A program made the translations under genes and the position numbers. DNA of 64,000 nucleotides, from assembly GCF_024502345.1 (NCBI RefSeq), contig NZ_JALDNN010000001.1. One strand, given 5' to 3'. Source of the DNA: Escherichia coli (GTDB taxonomy: Bacteria > Pseudomonadota > Gammaproteobacteria > Enterobacterales > Enterobacteriaceae). Below, piece after piece: positions 4,456 to 50,982 of this stretch (positions are counted from its first letter, which is position 1; each line of letters opens with the position of its first letter). The notes beneath the pieces were generated by a model, which ran no database searches, had not been told where the DNA came from, and saw only the letters and a list, made by a program, of their open reading frames with translations.

Positions 4456-5889
4456 ATGAAAGTAACGCTGCCAGAGTTTGAACGTGCAGGAGTGATGGTG
4501 GTTGGTGATGTGATGCTGGATCGTTACTGGTACGGCCCCACCAGTCGTATCTCGCCGGAAGCGCCGGTGCCCGTGGTTAAAGTGAATACCATCGAAGAAC
4601 GTCCGGGCGGCGCGGCTAACGTGGCGATGAATATCGCTTCTCTCGGTGCTAATGCACGCCTGGTCGGGTTGACGGGCATTGACGATGCAGCGCGCGCGCT
4701 GAGTAAATCTCTGGCCGACGTCAACGTCAAATGCGACTTCGTTTCTGTACCGACGCATCCTACCATTACCAAATTACGGGTACTTTCCCGCAACCAACAG
4801 CTGATCCGTCTGGATTTTGAAGAAGGTTTCGAAGGTGTTGATCCGCAGCCGCTGCACGAGCGGATTAATCAGGCGCTGAGTTCGATTGGCGCGCTGGTGC
4901 TTTCTGACTACGCCAAAGGTGCGCTGGCAAGCGTACAGCAGATGATCCAACTGGCGCGTAAAGCGGGCGTTCCGGTGCTGATTGATCCAAAAGGTACCGA
5001 TTTTGAGCGCTACCGCGGCGCTACGCTGTTAACGCCGAATCTCTCGGAATTTGAAGCTGTTGTCGGTAAATGTAAGACCGAAGAAGAGATTGTTGAGCGC
5101 GGCATGAAACTGATTGCCGATTACGAACTCTCGGCTCTGTTAGTGACCCGTTCCGAACAGGGTATGTCGCTGCTGCAACCGGGTAAAGCGCCGCTGCATA
5201 TGCCAACCCAGGCGCAGGAAGTGTATGACGTTACCGGTGCGGGCGACACGGTGATTGGCGTCCTGGCGGCAACGCTGGCAGCGGGTAATTCGCTGGAAGA
5301 AGCCTGCTTCTTTGCCAATGCGGCGGCTGGTGTGGTGGTCGGCAAACTGGGGACGTCCACGGTTTCGCCGATCGAGCTGGAAAACGCTGTACGTGGACGC
5401 GCAGATACCGGCTTTGGCGTGATGACCGAAGAGGAACTGAAGCTGGCCGTAGCGGCAGCGCGTAAACGTGGTGAAAAAGTGGTAATGACCAACGGTGTCT
5501 TCGATATCCTACATGCCGGGCACGTCTCTTATCTGGCAAATGCCCGCAAGCTGGGTGACCGCTTGATTGTTGCCGTCAACAGCGATGCCTCCACCAAACG
5601 GCTGAAAGGGGATTCCCGCCCGGTAAACCCACTCGAACAGCGTATGATTGTGCTGGGCGCACTGGAAGCGGTCGACTGGGTAGTGTCGTTTGAAGAAGAT
5701 ACGCCGCAGCGCCTGATCGCCGGGATCCTGCCAGATCTGCTGGTGAAAGGTGGCGACTATAAACCAGAAGAGATTGCCGGGAGTAAAGAAGTCTGGGCCA
5801 ACGGCGGCGAAGTGCTGGTGCTCAACTTCGAAGACGGTTGCTCGACCACTAACATTATCAAGAAGATCCAACAGGATAAAAAAGGCTAA
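4456..5889 (+). CDS. hldE: Bifunctional D-beta-D-heptose 7-phosphate kinase / heptose 1-phosphate adenylyltransferase, 477 aa
   Basis: 477-aa ORF with SD AGGAGA upstream; recognised RfaE/HldE sequence; conserved position after glnE. Confidence 0.93.
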
Positions 5890-47184: not shown

Positions 47185-48225
47185 TCATTTATCGGACGAC
47201 GCCTGCCACAGATTCAGCTCGCCATCGGCGATATGCTGATCAATCTGCGCCAGCTCCTCGGTGCTAAATGTCAGATTATTCAGCGCCTGCACGTTCTCCT
47301 CTAGTTGCTCCGCGCGGCTGGCACCAATCAATACCGACGTCACGCGATCATCTTTCAACAACCAGCTTAACGCCATTTGCGCCATTGATTGTCCACGCTG
47401 CTGTGCCATTTCATTCAATAAGCGCAGGCTGTTGAGGTTGGCTTCGGTAAGCATTTTCGGTGTCAGACCACGAACTTTATTCCCTTCACGATGCATCCGT
47501 GAATCTTGCGGAATGCCGTTGAGATATTTTCCGGTCAGCAATCCCTGAGCCAGAGGAGTAAAGGCAATACAGCCCACGCCGTTATTTTGCAGGGTATCCA
47601 GCAGGCCGCTTTTATCCACCCAGCGGTTCAGTAAATTGTACGAAGGTTGATGAATTAACAGCGGAATTTTCCACTCGTGCAGCAACTCGACCATTTTTTG
47701 CGTCCGCTCTGGCGAGTAAGAGGAGATCCCGACATACAGCGCCTTACCGCTTTGTACCGCATGAGCCAGCGCAGAGGCGGTTTCTTCCATCGGCGTATTT
47801 TCATCGACGCGATGAGAGTAAAAGATATCGACATACTCAAGCCCCATACGCTTCAGGCTTTGGTCGAGGCTGGCGAGCAGGTATTTACGTGAACCGCCAG
47901 AGCCGTAAGGGCCGGGCCACATATCGTAGCCAGCCTTGGTAGAGATAATCAGTTCATCGCGATAAGCGGCAAAATCCTCCCGCAGCAGGCGACCAAAGTT
48001 CTCTTCTGCGCTTCCTGGAGGCGGCCCGTAATTGTTGGCTAAATCAAAGTGCGTAATGCCTAAATCAAACGCTTTACGCAGGATCGCACGCTGTGATTCC
48101 AGCGCGTTAACGTGACCGAAATTGTGCCATAAACCGAGCGATAACGCGGGCAGGCGTAAACCGCTTTTTCCGCAATAGCGGTACTGCATCTGCCCGTAAC
48201 GCTCGGGATTCGCTAACCAGACCAT
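47185..48225 (-). CDS. gpr: L-glyceraldehyde 3-phosphate reductase (aldo-keto reductase), 346 aa
   Basis: Recognised as YghZ/Gpr. Confidence 0.9.
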   Translation of the reverse strand: MVWLANPERYGQMQYRYCGKSGLRLPALSLGLWHNFGHVNALESQRAILRKAFDLGITHFDLANNYGPPPGSAEENFGRLLREDFAAYRDELIISTKAGYDMWPGPYGSGGSRKYLLASLDQSLKRMGLEYVDIFYSHRVDENTPMEETASALAHAVQSGKALYVGISSYSPERTQKMVELLHEWKIPLLIHQPSYNLLNRWVDKSGLLDTLQNNGVGCIAFTPLAQGLLTGKYLNGIPQDSRMHREGNKVRGLTPKMLTEANLNSLRLLNEMAQQRGQSMAQMALSWLLKDDRVTSVLIGASRAEQLEENVQALNNLTFSTEELAQIDQHIADGELNLWQASSDK

Positions 48226-48381
48226 GACCTCTCCTTTCCACCGTTCAATTTCGAAACAATGTTTCTAGTTTAGCGATTCGCCAGCGCGTATCCCGTAGTC
48301 TGGCTCACAGAGTGACGAAAAACTGGGCAAAAACACGTGCTTATGCTTTGCTTAAAAAAACACCAACTGAGGAGTGCAACG

Positions 48382-49269
48382 ATGCCGCGTTTAACCGCCA
48401 AAGATTTCCCACAAGAGTTGCTGGATTACTACGACTATTACGCTCACGGGAAAATCTCGAAACGTGAGTTCCTCAACCTTGCGGCGAAGTATGCGGTAGG
48501 CGGGATGACGGCATTAGCGTTGTTTGATTTGCTCAAGCCAAATTATGCGCTGGCGACTCAGGTAGAGTTTACCGACCCGGAGATTTTTGCTGAGTACATC
48601 ACGTATCCTTCGCCAAATGGTCACGGCGAGGTACGGGGTTATCTGGTGAAACCCGCAAAAATGAGCGGCAAAACGCCAGCCGTGGTGGTGGTGCATGAGA
48701 ATCGTGGACTGAATCCGTATATCGAAGATGTGGCACGGCGAGTGGCGAAGGCGGGGTATATCGCCCTGGCACCTGACGGCTTAAGTTCCGTTGGAGGTTA
48801 TCCGGGAAATGATGATAAAGGTCGTGAGCTGCAACAGCAGGTTGATCCAACCAAACTGATGAATGATTTCTTTGCCGCAATTGAGTTTATGCAACGCTAT
48901 CCGCAAGCGACAGGCAAAGTGGGTATTACCGGATTTTGCTATGGCGGTGGCGTATCGAACGCGGCGGCTGTCGCGTATCCGGAACTGGCCTGCGCGGTGC
49001 CGTTTTATGGTCGTCAGGCACCCACTGCCGATGTGGCGAAGATTGAAGCGCCTTTACTACTCCACTTCGCGGAACTGGACACCCGAATCAACGAGGGCTG
49101 GCCTGCTTACGAGGCGGCGTTGAAAGCCAATAATAAGGTTTATGAGGCGTATATCTATCCGGGGGTTAATCACGGATTCCATAATGATTCCACGCCCCGT
49201 TATGACAAATCTGCCGCCGATCTTGCCTGGCAAAGGACACTGAAATGGTTCGATAAATATCTCTCCTGA
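48382..49269 (+). CDS. yghX: Dienelactone hydrolase-family protein, intact 295-aa reading frame
   Basis: Uninterrupted ORF from ATG 48382 (MPRLTAKDF...); nucleophile motif GFCYGG; K-12 copy is recalled as frameshifted. Confidence 0.8.
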   Translation: MPRLTAKDFPQELLDYYDYYAHGKISKREFLNLAAKYAVGGMTALALFDLLKPNYALATQVEFTDPEIFAEYITYPSPNGHGEVRGYLVKPAKMSGKTPAVVVVHENRGLNPYIEDVARRVAKAGYIALAPDGLSSVGGYPGNDDKGRELQQQVDPTKLMNDFFAAIEFMQRYPQATGKVGITGFCYGGGVSNAAAVAYPELACAVPFYGRQAPTADVAKIEAPLLLHFAELDTRINEGWPAYEAALKANNKVYEAYIYPGVNHGFHNDSTPRYDKSAADLAWQRTLKWFDKYLS

Positions 49270-49387
49270 TAGGTTTATCTCTTACGGGATTACGTCTTAA
49301 ACAAGCATGAAAAAATAGCGTGCGCAAAAGTCGTTCTTTGCCTAAAATATCGCTATATATGACGATATATAGCGAATGAGGTGAACG

Positions 49388-49675
49388 ATGAATAACCATT
49401 TTGGTAAAGGTTTAATGGCGGGATTAAAAGCAACGCATGCCGACAGTGCGGTTAATGTGACAAAATTCTGTGCCGATTATAAACGCGGTTTTGTATTAGG
49501 CTACTCACACCGGATGTACGAAAAGACCGGAGATCGCCAGCTTAGCGCCTGGGAAGCGGGTATTCTGACGCGCCGCTATGGACTGGATAAAGAGATGGTA
49601 ATGGATTTCTTTCGTGAGAATAATTCCTGTTCTACGTTGCGCTTTTTTATGGCCGGTTATCGCCTCGAAAATTGA
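49388..49675 (+). CDS. yghW: DUF2623 protein, 95 aa
   Basis: Conserved position upstream of hyb operon. Confidence 0.8.
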
Positions 49676-49863: not shown

Positions 49864-50982
49864 ATGACTGGAGATAACACCCTCATCCATTCTCACGGCA
49901 TTAACCGTCGTGATTTCATGAAGCTTTGTGCAGCATTAGCCGCCACCATGGGGTTAAGTAGCAAAGCCGCTGCAGAGATGGCCGAATCGGTTACTAACCC
50001 GCAGCGTCCGCCAGTTATCTGGATTGGCGCGCAGGAGTGCACCGGTTGTACGGAATCTCTGCTTCGTGCAACGCATCCAACGGTAGAAAACCTCGTACTG
50101 GAGACTATCTCTCTGGAGTATCACGAAGTACTTTCCGCCGCCTTCGGTCATCAGGTCGAAGAGAACAAACATAACGCTCTCGAGAAGTACAAAGGGCAGT
50201 ATGTGTTAGTGGTGGATGGTTCCATCCCATTAAAAGATAACGGTATTTATTGCATGGTTGCCGGTGAGCCGATTGTGGATCACATCCGCAAAGCGGCGGA
50301 AGGCGCAGCAGCCATTATCGCTATCGGTTCCTGCTCTGCGTGGGGCGGTGTTGCCGCAGCTGGAGTTAACCCAACTGGCGCCGTCAGCCTGCAAGAAGTT
50401 CTGCCAGGCAAAACCGTTATCAACATTCCGGGCTGCCCGCCGAACCCGCACAACTTCCTCGCGACCGTTGCGCACATCATCACTTACGGCAAACCGCCGA
50501 AACTGGATGACAAAAACCGTCCGACCTTCGCCTATGGCCGTCTGATTCACGAACACTGCGAACGTCGCCCACACTTCGATGCGGGTCGTTTTGCCAAAGA
50601 GTTCGGTGATGAAGGCCACCGCGAAGGCTGGTGCCTGTACCACCTCGGCTGTAAAGGGCCAGAAACTTACGGCAACTGCTCAACGCTGCAATTCTGCGAT
50701 GTTGGCGGTGTGTGGCCGGTGGCCATTGGTCACCCGTGCTATGGCTGTAACGAAGAAGGTATCGGCTTCCATAAAGGCATCCATCAGCTTGCCAACGTCG
50801 AAAATCAGACTCCGCGTTCACAGAAACCGGATGTTAACGCTAAAGAGGGCGGCAACGTCTCTGCAGGCGCTATTGGTTTGCTCGGCGGTGTGGTTGGGCT
50901 GGTTGCCGGTGTCAGCGTGATGGCGGTGCGTGAACTGGGTCGTCAGCAAAAGAAAGATAACGCTGACTCACGGGGAGAATAA
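49864..50982 (+). CDS. hybO: Hydrogenase-2 small subunit, 372 aa
   Basis: Tat signal RRDFMK; [NiFe] small-subunit Cys clusters; recognised. Confidence 0.95.

What the first reader, a model, noticed from the sequence alone, without database searches (positions are those of the whole stretch)
48382..49269. yghX reading frame is intact here
A continuous 295-aa dienelactone-hydrolase-family ORF (nucleophile motif GFCYGG) is present, whereas the K-12 yghX locus is annotated as a frameshifted pseudogene to my knowledge. This strain may retain a functional enzyme lost in K-12.
Basis: partly seen in the sequence, partly recalled or inferred. Interest (0 to 1): 0.3.

Follow-up and report, generated by a model that had tools for sequence, protein, structure and literature searches.

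The report
Intact yghX hydrolase gene, ordinary
This E. coli-type window carries the normal, unbroken version of yghX, a cysteine-type dienelactone-hydrolase-family enzyme; the broken copy in laboratory K-12 is the derived minority state, so the finding is correct but already known and ordinary.

Summary
Window 48382..49269 (+) is an uninterrupted 295-codon ORF with a GAGGAG ribosome-binding site. It matches Pfam DLH and NCBIfam "YghX family hydrolase" (586 bits, cut-off 460) and lies in the usual gpr–yghX–yghW–hyb order. K-12 MG1655 does annotate yghX (b4658) as a pseudogene. The alignment shows two K-12 deletions: 2 bp at window 48490-48491 (codon 37) and 1 bp at 48851/48852 (codon 157).

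The intact state is the common one. Allele-specific probes against 5,426 complete E. coli genomes find the K-12 deletions in 1,251 and 1,199 genomes (about 23%), and the window allele at the second site in 4,221. The Cys186-Asp233-His264 triad and Glu106 align with ClcD. dN/dS against a divergent E. coli allele is 0.04. Residues 60-294 of the O157:H7 Sakai protein are already crystallised (PDB 4ZV9), with one substitution relative to the window.

One side insight emerged. Residues 1-58 look like a twin-arginine-type export signal (S-K-R-E-F-L, A/G-rich hydrophobic stretch, A-L-A). Most distant homologues have RR at this position, and some carry plain Tat signals or lipoboxes. The K-12 small protein YqhI is the first 36 residues of this region plus 11 frameshifted residues. 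Export and substrate are untested.

The parts
48369..48374 (+). Shine-Dalgarno-like GAGGAG, 7 nt upstream of the yghX ATG
   Evidence: Read directly from the sequence. The same start codon is used by the validated K-12 small protein YqhI.
48382..49269 (+). yghX CDS: 295 codons plus stop, intact
   Evidence: ORF shown. Pfam DLH PF01738, E 2.7e-48, residues 84-294. NCBIfam NF041440 YghX family hydrolase, 586 bits against a cut-off of 460. RefSeq annotates the same CDS in other genomes.
48382..48489 (+). Residues 1-36: the 'YqhI-like' region (PF23678). This is the part shared with the K-12 small protein YqhI. It contains the conserved motif LLDYYDYYAH and the KR of the twin-arginine-like motif.
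   Evidence: PF23678, E 1.4e-21, residues 1-36. The YqhI sequence is given in PMC6001520.
48457..48474 (+). Residues 26-31, S-K-R-E-F-L: a twin-arginine-like motif in its KR variant
   Evidence: In 34 diverse homologues these two positions are RR in 27 and KR in 3. Phe at +2 occurs in 29 of 34. All 120 close enterobacterial clusters have KR-E-F-L.
48475..48555 (+). Residues 32-58: a moderately hydrophobic A/G/T-rich stretch ending in A56-L57-A58, a putative signal-peptidase site
   Evidence: The best 12-residue Kyte-Doolittle mean is 1.6, with a family median of 1.8. Ala at position 56 occurs in 20 of 34 homologues and Ala at position 58 in 25 of 34. The PDB 4ZV9 construct starts at Q60.
48490..48491 (+). 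Site of the 2-bp deletion carried by K-12 (codon 37). The bases are present here.
   Evidence: Alignment A1. The K-12 allele probe matches 1,251 of 5,426 genomes.
48851..48852 (+). CC dinucleotide. K-12 has lost one C (codon 157). Both are present here.
   Evidence: Alignment A1. The K-12 allele probe matches 1,199 genomes and the window allele probe matches 4,221.
48697..48699 (+). Glu106 codon, equivalent to ClcD Glu36
   Evidence: HMMER alignment to ClcD variant 4u2c. Glu occurs in 28 of 34 homologues.
48937..48939 (+). Cys186 codon, the nucleophile in GFCYGG, equivalent to ClcD Cys123
   Evidence: Cys occurs in 31 of 34 homologues.
49078..49080 (+). Asp233 codon, equivalent to ClcD Asp171
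   Evidence: The residue is invariant in 34 of 34 homologues.
49171..49173 (+). His264 codon, equivalent to ClcD His202
   Evidence: His occurs in 31 of 34 homologues.
47185..48225 (-). gpr (L-glyceraldehyde 3-phosphate reductase), the divergent upstream neighbour
   Evidence: ORF. Annotation of matching genomes.
49388..49675 (+). yghW (DUF2623), the downstream neighbour, followed by hybO at 49864
   Evidence: ORFs. Annotation.

Best explanation
Window 48382-49269 is the intact, ancestral allele of yghX. It encodes a 295-residue precursor made of two parts. The first is an N-terminal segment of about 58 residues. The second is an alpha/beta-hydrolase domain of the dienelactone-hydrolase (DLH) family, which uses a Cys186-His264-Asp233 triad assisted by Glu106. 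By analogy with ClcD it should hydrolyse an ester, lactone or thioester through a covalent thioester (acyl-Cys) intermediate. The natural substrate is unknown.

K-12 and about 23% of sequenced E. coli carry a derived pseudogene. A 2-bp deletion in codon 37 probably came first, and a 1-bp deletion in codon 157 came later. These lesions leave only the 47-residue remnant YqhI translated from the original start codon.

What is shown: ORF integrity, family membership, presence of the triad, the positions of the K-12 lesions, the population frequencies, and purifying selection.

What is inferred (about 55% likely): the N-terminal segment is a twin-arginine-type (Tat) signal peptide in a KR variant with an unusually long, conserved n-region, so that the folded enzyme is exported to the periplasm and cleaved after A56-L57-A58.
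For: ORF and ribosome-binding site.

Family membership: Pfam DLH and NCBIfam YghX score above their curated cut-offs. The gene order gpr-yghX-yghW-hybO is the same in 5,414 genomes.

Fold and catalytic residues: PDB 4ZV9 (E. coli O157:H7 Sakai, residues 60-294) differs from the window by one residue. The AlphaFold2 model superposes on it at 0.5 Å. The triad and Glu106 align with ClcD C123, D171, H202 and E36 and are conserved in 28-34 of 34 homologues.

K-12 lesions. ETEC H10407 carries an 885-bp allele identical to K-12 and flagged 'frameshifted'. An allele with only the 2-bp deletion exists in strain SW070910.

Frequencies: 1,251 genomes carry the 2-bp deletion and 1,199 carry the 1-bp deletion, against 4,221 with the window allele at the second site.

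Selection: against strain N53 there are 37 synonymous and 6 non-synonymous differences, giving dN/dS 0.044. Repairing the K-12 allele in silico gives a protein with only one substitution (F69V), so the decay is recent.

Expression: the start codon is active, because YqhI is detected in K-12 and induced at low Mg2+ (PMC6001520, PMC11429745).

Export signal: RR or KR followed by x-F-L is present in 30 of 34 homologues. Among representatives that have an N-terminus, 76 of 91 have (R/K)R-x-phi-phi followed by a hydrophobic stretch. Some homologues carry short canonical Tat signals (P0151, P0167, P0176, P0267). Others carry a lipobox followed by long P/T/A-rich linkers (P0204, P0215, P0223, P0228). 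The TIGR01409 Tat model scores 16.4 bits in P0128 against a cut-off of 16.7. The Rieske Tat-signal model PF10399 weakly hits 4 of 34. The crystallised construct begins at Q60, just after the putative A-L-A site.
Against: No enzymatic activity of YghX is known. The purified protein had no promiscuous phosphotriesterase activity (bioRxiv 10.1101/2025.10.30.685675).

For the export step: the E. coli motif is KR, not RR. No Tat model reaches its threshold on the E. coli sequence. The region before the motif is long (26 residues) and conserved position by position, which is unusual for a signal peptide.

AlphaFold2 gives residues 1-60 pLDDT 91-96 in the full-length model. For the segment modelled alone, the overall mean is 86, with the same three helices. 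This is more typical of a folded module than of a cleaved signal.

No experimental localisation data were found.
Confidence: 0.85

Rival explanations
1. The N-terminal 58 residues are not a signal peptide. They form a small three-helix module that stays attached to the enzyme, for example as a cap, a regulatory domain or an interaction domain. On this reading YghX is cytoplasmic or membrane-associated, and the RRxFL resemblance is incidental or a relic.
For: AlphaFold2 gives pLDDT 91-96 for residues 1-60 in the full-length model. For the segment modelled alone, the overall mean is 86, with the same helices at 11-21, 27-37 and 44-51. Conservation is position-specific well beyond the RR and AxA motifs: L16, Y17, D18, Y20, H22, G40, P53 and Y55. 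Pfam treats residues 1-36 as a domain, PF23678. YqhI is listed as a putative soluble protein.
Against: Homologues at 44-48% identity replace the module with short canonical Tat signals, or lack it altogether (P0151, P0167, P0176, P0205, P0216). Others place a lipobox and a disordered linker of 60-90 residues between the module and the catalytic domain, so a fixed docking geometry cannot be conserved. The third helix is A/G/S/T/L-rich and uncharged, like a Tat h-region. The catalytic domain crystallises without the module. Foldseek finds no structural relative of the module.
Confidence: 0.3
2. The N-terminal region is an uncleaved Tat-type signal anchor, as in Rieske Fe-S proteins. It would tether the hydrolase to the periplasmic face of the inner membrane.
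For: PF10399, the Rieske Fe-S N-terminal Tat signal model, weakly matches 4 of 34 homologues, with a best E-value of 4.7e-4. The n-region is conserved. Lipobox-bearing homologues are also membrane-tethered.
Against: An AxA motif is conserved at the end of the hydrophobic stretch: 118 of 120 close orthologues, with A58 in 25 of 34 distant ones. The hydrophobic stretch is short, is interrupted by a conserved Gly-Gly or Gly-Ser, and contains K36 and D49 in E. coli.
Confidence: 0.1
3. The intact ORF is a silent or decaying gene in this strain too. It would be unbroken only by chance and of no functional consequence.
For: About 23% of E. coli genomes have lost it without obvious cost. K-12 engineers routinely use the locus as a neutral integration site (PMC7677707). 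No phenotype or substrate is known.
Against: dN/dS is 0.044 across E. coli phylogroups. Full-length orthologues at 85-92% identity occur across Enterobacteriaceae with all motifs intact: 117 of 120 clusters. The promoter and start codon are active even in K-12, where YqhI is detected and is induced at low Mg2+.
Confidence: 0.05
4. YghX is a polymerase for short-chain conjugated poly-3-hydroxybutyrate (cPHB) rather than a hydrolase. This was proposed from its GxCxG box.
For: A review cites Rychlewski et al., who named ysgA, ycjY and yghX as potential cPHB polymerases on the basis of a GXCXG motif, and notes that most cPHB polymerase activity is periplasmic (PMC3709699).
Against: This is a prediction only. 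The best matches by sequence and fold are all DLH-type hydrolases. K-12, the strain in which cPHB was studied, lacks a functional yghX.
Confidence: 0.03

Closest known systems
YghX of E. coli O157:H7 Sakai (PDB 4ZV9, 'uncharacterized protein'; called EcoDLH in bioRxiv 10.1101/2025.10.30.685675)
   Same: It is the same gene. Residues 60-294 are identical except for S134N. The AlphaFold2 model of the window protein superposes on it at 0.5 Å rmsd over 235 residues.
   Different: The crystallised construct lacks residues 1-59. No native activity has been reported for it. It showed no phosphotriesterase activity, and its catalytic Cys is oxidised or modified in the crystal.
K-12 yghX pseudogene (b4658) and the small protein YqhI (b4755)
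   Same: Same locus and gene order. Apart from the indels, the coding sequence differs at only 7 of 888 bases. The start codon and the first 36 codons are shared.
   Different: K-12 carries a 2-bp deletion in codon 37 and a 1-bp deletion in codon 157. Only the 47-residue YqhI is made: 36 native residues followed by CGRRDDGISVV.
Dienelactone hydrolase ClcD of Pseudomonas knackmussii (PDB 1DIN, 4U2C; EC 3.1.1.45)
   Same: Both have the alpha/beta-hydrolase DLH fold. Both have the Cys-His-Asp triad and the Glu that holds the resting Cys, all at aligned positions.
   Different: Identity is only about 25%. ClcD is cytoplasmic, has no N-terminal extension, and sits in a chlorocatechol pathway operon. 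yghX is monocistronic with no pathway context, and its distant homologues share no conserved neighbours.
Tat (twin-arginine) signal peptides, including natural KR variants such as Salmonella TtrB (from my own knowledge, not checked here)
   Same: YghX has an S-(K/R)-R-x-F-L motif, a weakly hydrophobic A/G-rich h-region and an AxA terminus. The passenger is a folded globular enzyme. Family members carry unmistakable RR signals or Tat-lipoprotein-like signals.
   Different: The n-region is 26 residues long, has a conserved (I/V)(I/L)DLYDEY(T/A)H motif and is predicted to be helical. The curated Tat models do not reach threshold on the E. coli sequence.

Membership tests
Dienelactone hydrolase family (Pfam PF01738) | Profile match above the curated gathering score | tested here: met
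   164.8 bits against a cut-off of 21. Residues 84-294 cover profile positions 1-217 of 217.
Dienelactone hydrolase family (Pfam PF01738) | Alpha/beta-hydrolase fold superposable on ClcD | tested here: met
   The AlphaFold2 model (pLDDT 96.7) matches 1DIN and 4U2C at 2.2-2.4 Å over about 233 residues with probability 1.00. It matches 4ZV9 at 0.5 Å.
Dienelactone hydrolase family (Pfam PF01738) | Cys-His-Asp catalytic triad plus the Glu36-equivalent residue | tested here: met
   C186, H264, D233 and E106 align with ClcD C123, H202, D171 and E36. They are conserved in 31, 31, 34 and 28 of 34 homologues respectively.
Dienelactone hydrolase family (Pfam PF01738) | Hydrolysis of dienelactone (carboxymethylenebutenolide) | not testable with these tools
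The literature found reports only an absence of phosphotriesterase activity.
YghX family hydrolase (NCBIfam NF041440) | Score above the curated cut-off | tested here: met
   586.4 bits against a cut-off of 460. Residues 3-294 cover profile positions 1-292 of 292.
YghX family hydrolase (NCBIfam NF041440) | Orthologous position between gpr and yghW, upstream of the hyb operon | tested here: met
   ORFs. The same order is annotated in the matching genomes.
Frameshifted yghX pseudogene (K-12 type) | 2-bp deletion in codon 37 and/or 1-bp deletion in codon 157 | tested here: not met
   The window has both undeleted alleles, so it is not a member of the pseudogene class.
Tat (twin-arginine) signal peptide | Consensus motif S/T-R-R-x-F-L-K | tested here: inconclusive
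   The window has S-K-R-E-F-L-N (KR). Of 34 homologues, 27 have RR. All 120 close orthologue clusters have KR.
Tat (twin-arginine) signal peptide | Match to curated Tat signal models (TIGR01409, PF10518) | tested here: not met
   No hit on the E. coli N-terminus at E ≤ 10. Homologue P0128 scores 16.4 bits against a cut-off of 16.7, and P0257 scores 9 bits. PF10518 is not among the 25 families listed (of 36 matched) for the 34 homologues.
Tat (twin-arginine) signal peptide | Moderately hydrophobic h-region followed by an AxA cleavage motif | tested here: met
   The best 12-residue Kyte-Doolittle mean is 1.59, with a family median of 1.78. The motif is A56-L57-A58. AxA is present in 118 of 120 close orthologues.
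Tat (twin-arginine) signal peptide | TatABC-dependent export and cleavage | not testable with these tools
   This needs fractionation in tat+ and tatC-deleted cells. No published data were found.

The most novel reading that the evidence does not exclude
YghX would be an unrecognised Tat substrate of non-K-12 E. coli and other Enterobacteriaceae. Its signal peptide would use a fixed Lys-Arg pair in place of Arg-Arg. It would also carry a long, conserved, helical n-region (the Pfam 'YqhI-like' module) that may bind a partner or hold the precursor until export. On this reading the validated, low-Mg2+-induced K-12 small protein YqhI is simply the orphaned n-region and KR motif of this signal peptide, left behind by gene decay. 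It would not be a small protein that evolved for a function of its own.
Probability: 0.45. Interest if true: 0.4.

Novelty: already known. Interest (0 to 1): 0.15.

Why it matters
The finding itself matters little. It restates a known difference between K-12 and other E. coli strains. yghX is a named RefSeq family, its catalytic domain has a crystal structure, and K-12 engineers already treat the locus as a pseudogene integration site.

Two practical points follow. First, conclusions drawn from K-12 say nothing about YghX function, because K-12 and about a quarter of E. coli strains lack the enzyme. Second, people studying the small protein YqhI should know that it is the first 36 residues of an ancestral, probably export-directing, N-terminal segment plus 11 out-of-frame residues. 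This may explain why deleting it gives a phenotype that the peptide cannot complement.

If the KR-type Tat signal with its conserved n-region is real, it adds one substrate to the E. coli Tat list. It would also offer a natural example of a structured signal-peptide n-region.

Tried and rejected
1. K-12 frameshifts as sequencing errors: rejected. The same alleles occur in about 1,200 genomes, including independent K-12 assemblies (MG1655, DH1, MC4100, J53, XL10). The allele is identical in wild strain ETEC H10407.

2. The upstream GTG at 48337 (310-aa ORF) as the true start: rejected. The ATG at 48382 has a GAGGAG ribosome-binding site, is used in the RefSeq annotation, and is the validated YqhI start.

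3. Sigma-70 promoter scan of the gpr-yghX intergenic region: no plus-strand site was found, and the total count equalled the shuffle expectation. Uninformative.

4. Foldseek of the N-terminal module against the PDB: no match with E < 1.

5. The AFDB50 fold library was unavailable.

6. Gene neighbourhoods of distant homologues: no conserved partner.

7. Source names for distant clusters: only the automatic label 'carboxymethylenebutenolidase', with no export annotation.

8. A resemblance of D18…G23-x-I-S-x-x-E-F-L to an EF-hand loop was considered. No EF-hand family appears among the families listed by the Pfam scan of 34 homologues at E ≤ 1 (25 of 36 shown). The ligand positions 3 and 5 are Tyr and His. 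Not pursued.

9. Literature searches for localisation or Tat data on YghX found nothing relevant.

10. I could not inspect AlphaFold2 coordinates. Whether residues 1-58 touch the catalytic domain in the model is therefore unknown.

Full report
**Observation.** The window holds an uninterrupted ORF on the plus strand ending at 49269. Its longest form starts at GTG 48337. The ATG at 48382 gives 295 codons and is preceded by GAGGAG at 48369-48374. The translation contains GFCYGG at residues 184-189. The flanking ORFs are gpr (47185-48225, minus strand), yghW (49388-49675) and hybO (49864-50982). This is the usual E. coli arrangement.

**Identity.** The protein matches Pfam DLH (PF01738, E 2.7e-48, residues 84-294), and the short family PF23678 'YqhI-like' over residues 1-36. 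It scores 586 bits on NCBIfam NF041440 'YghX family hydrolase', whose cut-off is 460. The 1.25-kb region matches 5,425 of 5,426 complete E. coli genomes at 95-99.7% identity, and the gene is annotated as yghX in them. Over 24 kb the best identity to any complete E. coli genome is only 99.2%. The source strain is therefore not closely represented in that collection.

**The K-12 comparison.** In MG1655, yghX (b4658) is annotated as a pseudogene. A separate 47-codon gene, yqhI (b4755), overlaps its 5' end. Pairwise alignment shows two lesions in K-12:
- loss of 'TA' at window 48490-48491, in codon 37;
- loss of one C of the CC at 48851-48852, in codon 157.

The two deletions add up to 3 bp. The K-12 sequence therefore reads residues 1-36 in frame 0, residues 38-157 in frame +1, and residues 158-295 in frame 0 again, with stops in between. 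Frame 0 from the original ATG gives MPRL…LAAK followed by CGRRDDGISVV. This is exactly the published YqhI sequence (PMC6001520). Putting the three bases back in silico gives a protein that differs from the window protein only by F69V. The decay is therefore recent.

**How common each state is.** I used 48-50-nt probes centred on each indel. With megablast's 28-nt word, such a probe matches only its own allele.
- The K-12 allele at the first site matches 1,251 genomes, and at the second site 1,199.
- The window allele at the second site matches 4,221 genomes. Together, 4,221 and 1,199 account for essentially all genomes.
- The window-allele probe at the first site matches only 3,490 genomes, because nearby SNPs break the word.

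The K-12-type carriers include many natural isolates from humans, pigs, chickens and water. One is ETEC H10407, whose 885-bp allele is identical to K-12's and is flagged 'frameshifted' by RefSeq. Strain SW070910 has an 886-bp 'frameshifted' allele, consistent with the 2-bp deletion alone. This suggests that the 2-bp deletion came first. The intact gene is therefore the majority state (about 77%) and the ancestral one. Full-length orthologues at 85-92% identity occur in Citrobacter, Pseudescherichia, Enterobacter, Kosakonia and Leclercia.

**Is the intact gene likely to be functional?** HMMER alignment to the ClcD variant 4U2C places C186 on C123 (Ser in that variant), D233 on D171, H264 on H202 and E106 on E36. 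In 34 diverse homologues (36-68% identity) these residues are conserved in 31, 34, 31 and 28 sequences respectively. Against the divergent E. coli allele of strain N53 there are 43 nucleotide differences, and only 6 change the protein. Nei-Gojobori dN/dS is 0.044.

PDB 4ZV9 is described as an uncharacterised protein from E. coli O157:H7 Sakai (PMC8533429). It corresponds to residues 60-294 with one substitution relative to the window. An AlphaFold2 model of the window protein has pLDDT 96.7 and superposes on 4ZV9 at 0.5 Å. A 2026 preprint purified this protein as 'EcoDLH'. It found no promiscuous phosphotriesterase activity and noted an oxidised or modified catalytic Cys in the crystal.

The start site is active. 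YqhI is detected in K-12 and its transcript rises at low Mg2+ independently of PhoQP. No native substrate is known. An old proposal that YghX is a cPHB polymerase rests only on the GxCxG box.

**The N-terminal 58 residues.** This part is not covered by the crystal structure, and it is where something beyond the original finding emerged. The sequence reads as follows: S26-K-R-E-F-L31, then an A/G/T-rich weakly hydrophobic stretch, then A56-L57-A58. The crystallised construct starts at Q60.

Several results favour an export signal:
- In 34 diverse homologues the KR position is RR in 27 and KR in 3. Phe follows at +2 in 29. Ala occupies positions 56 and 58 in 20 and 25.
- Among 91 representatives that retain an N-terminus, 76 have (R/K)R-x-phi-phi followed by a hydrophobic stretch: 67 RR, 8 KR and 1 RK.
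- Some homologues at 44-48% identity carry short canonical Tat signals instead of the long N-terminus, for example P0176 (…RARRAFLRGLAAAAVGAAGARA) and P0151 (…SRRGFLAAVGAWSIAGSSAAGA).
- Four others place a lipobox (…ILAAC, …LLAAC, …ALGC) and a P/T/A-rich linker of up to about 90 residues between the hydrophobic stretch and the catalytic domain.

Swaps of this kind are what one expects if this region directs export and the catalytic domain works outside the cytoplasm. All 120 close enterobacterial clusters have K-R-E-F-L, so the KR pair is fixed there rather than being a recent defect.

Several results argue against a simple signal peptide:
- No curated Tat model reaches threshold on the E. coli sequence. 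The best homologue, P0128, scores 16.4 bits against a cut-off of 16.7.
- The 26 residues before the motif are conserved, with consensus (I/V)(I/L)DLYDEY(T/A)H.
- AlphaFold2 predicts three helices (11-21, 27-37, 44-51) with pLDDT 91-96 in the full-length model. For the segment modelled alone, the overall mean is 86. That is unusual for a cleaved signal.
- Foldseek finds no structural relative.

I rate Tat-type export at about 55%, a retained folded module at about 30%, and an uncleaved anchor at about 10%.

**Comparison with what is known, and verdict.** The finding is a correct reading of a well-known difference. yghX is intact in most E. coli and a pseudogene in K-12, where it is routinely used as a neutral integration site. 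The gene is a member of the DLH and YghX families by every feature that could be tested here. Only catalytic activity could not be tested. It is not a K-12-type pseudogene. Novelty is 'already known' and interest is low.

It looks like a KR-variant Tat-like signal with a conserved n-region, and YqhI would then be its orphaned remnant. That part remains unproven.

Noticed in passing
window 49350-49375: A perfect 11-bp inverted repeat, TCGCTATATAT-GACG-ATATATAGCGA, lies in the yghX-yghW intergenic region. It ends 12 nt before the yghW ATG and sits just upstream of the GAGGTG ribosome-binding site. The scan flagged it only as a minus-strand terminator-like site. It could be an operator or an mRNA hairpin controlling yghW.
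   Followed up: no
window 38000-62000: The best match of this 24-kb stretch to any of 5,426 complete E. coli genomes is only 99.2%. The source is therefore a lineage not closely represented there. It might be Shigella or a rarely sampled E. coli clade.
   Followed up: partly
window 48586 (codon 69): The window has TTT (Phe69). K-12, PapRG-04-4, N53, H10407 and EcN_Sk have GTT (Val69). The crystallised O157:H7 Sakai protein (4ZV9) also has Phe at this position.
   Followed up: partly
L004 (NZ_CP172017.1, strain EcN_Sk), corresponding to window 48733-48828: This K-12-type double-deletion allele carries a patch of about 100 bp with 19 differences from K-12. All but two (window 48752-48753) match the divergent N53-type allele. 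It is a recombination mosaic inside a pseudogene.
   Followed up: partly
L006 (NZ_LR134296.1, strain NCTC9041), corresponding to window 49173-49442: In NCTC9041 only the last 96 bp of yghX survive, together with the intergenic region and the start of yghW. They lie next to an IS1F element and are joined to mdtM. This is an IS1-associated rearrangement that removed the rest of the locus.
   Followed up: partly
window 48200-49450: The search found 6,099 matching places in 5,425 genomes. About 12% of genomes therefore hold a second, partial match to this stretch. I examined only the NCTC9041 case, which is that genome's best rather than second match, so the second places remain unexplained.
   Followed up: no
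L001 (K-12 MG1655) 4598-4741, corresponding to window 48382-48525: The yqhI deletion growth defect at low Mg2+ is not complemented by the peptide (PMC11429745). yqhI is the decayed 5' end of yghX and lies 156 bp from the divergent gpr start. The phenotype may therefore come from disturbing the shared gpr/yghX control region rather than from loss of the peptide.
   Followed up: no
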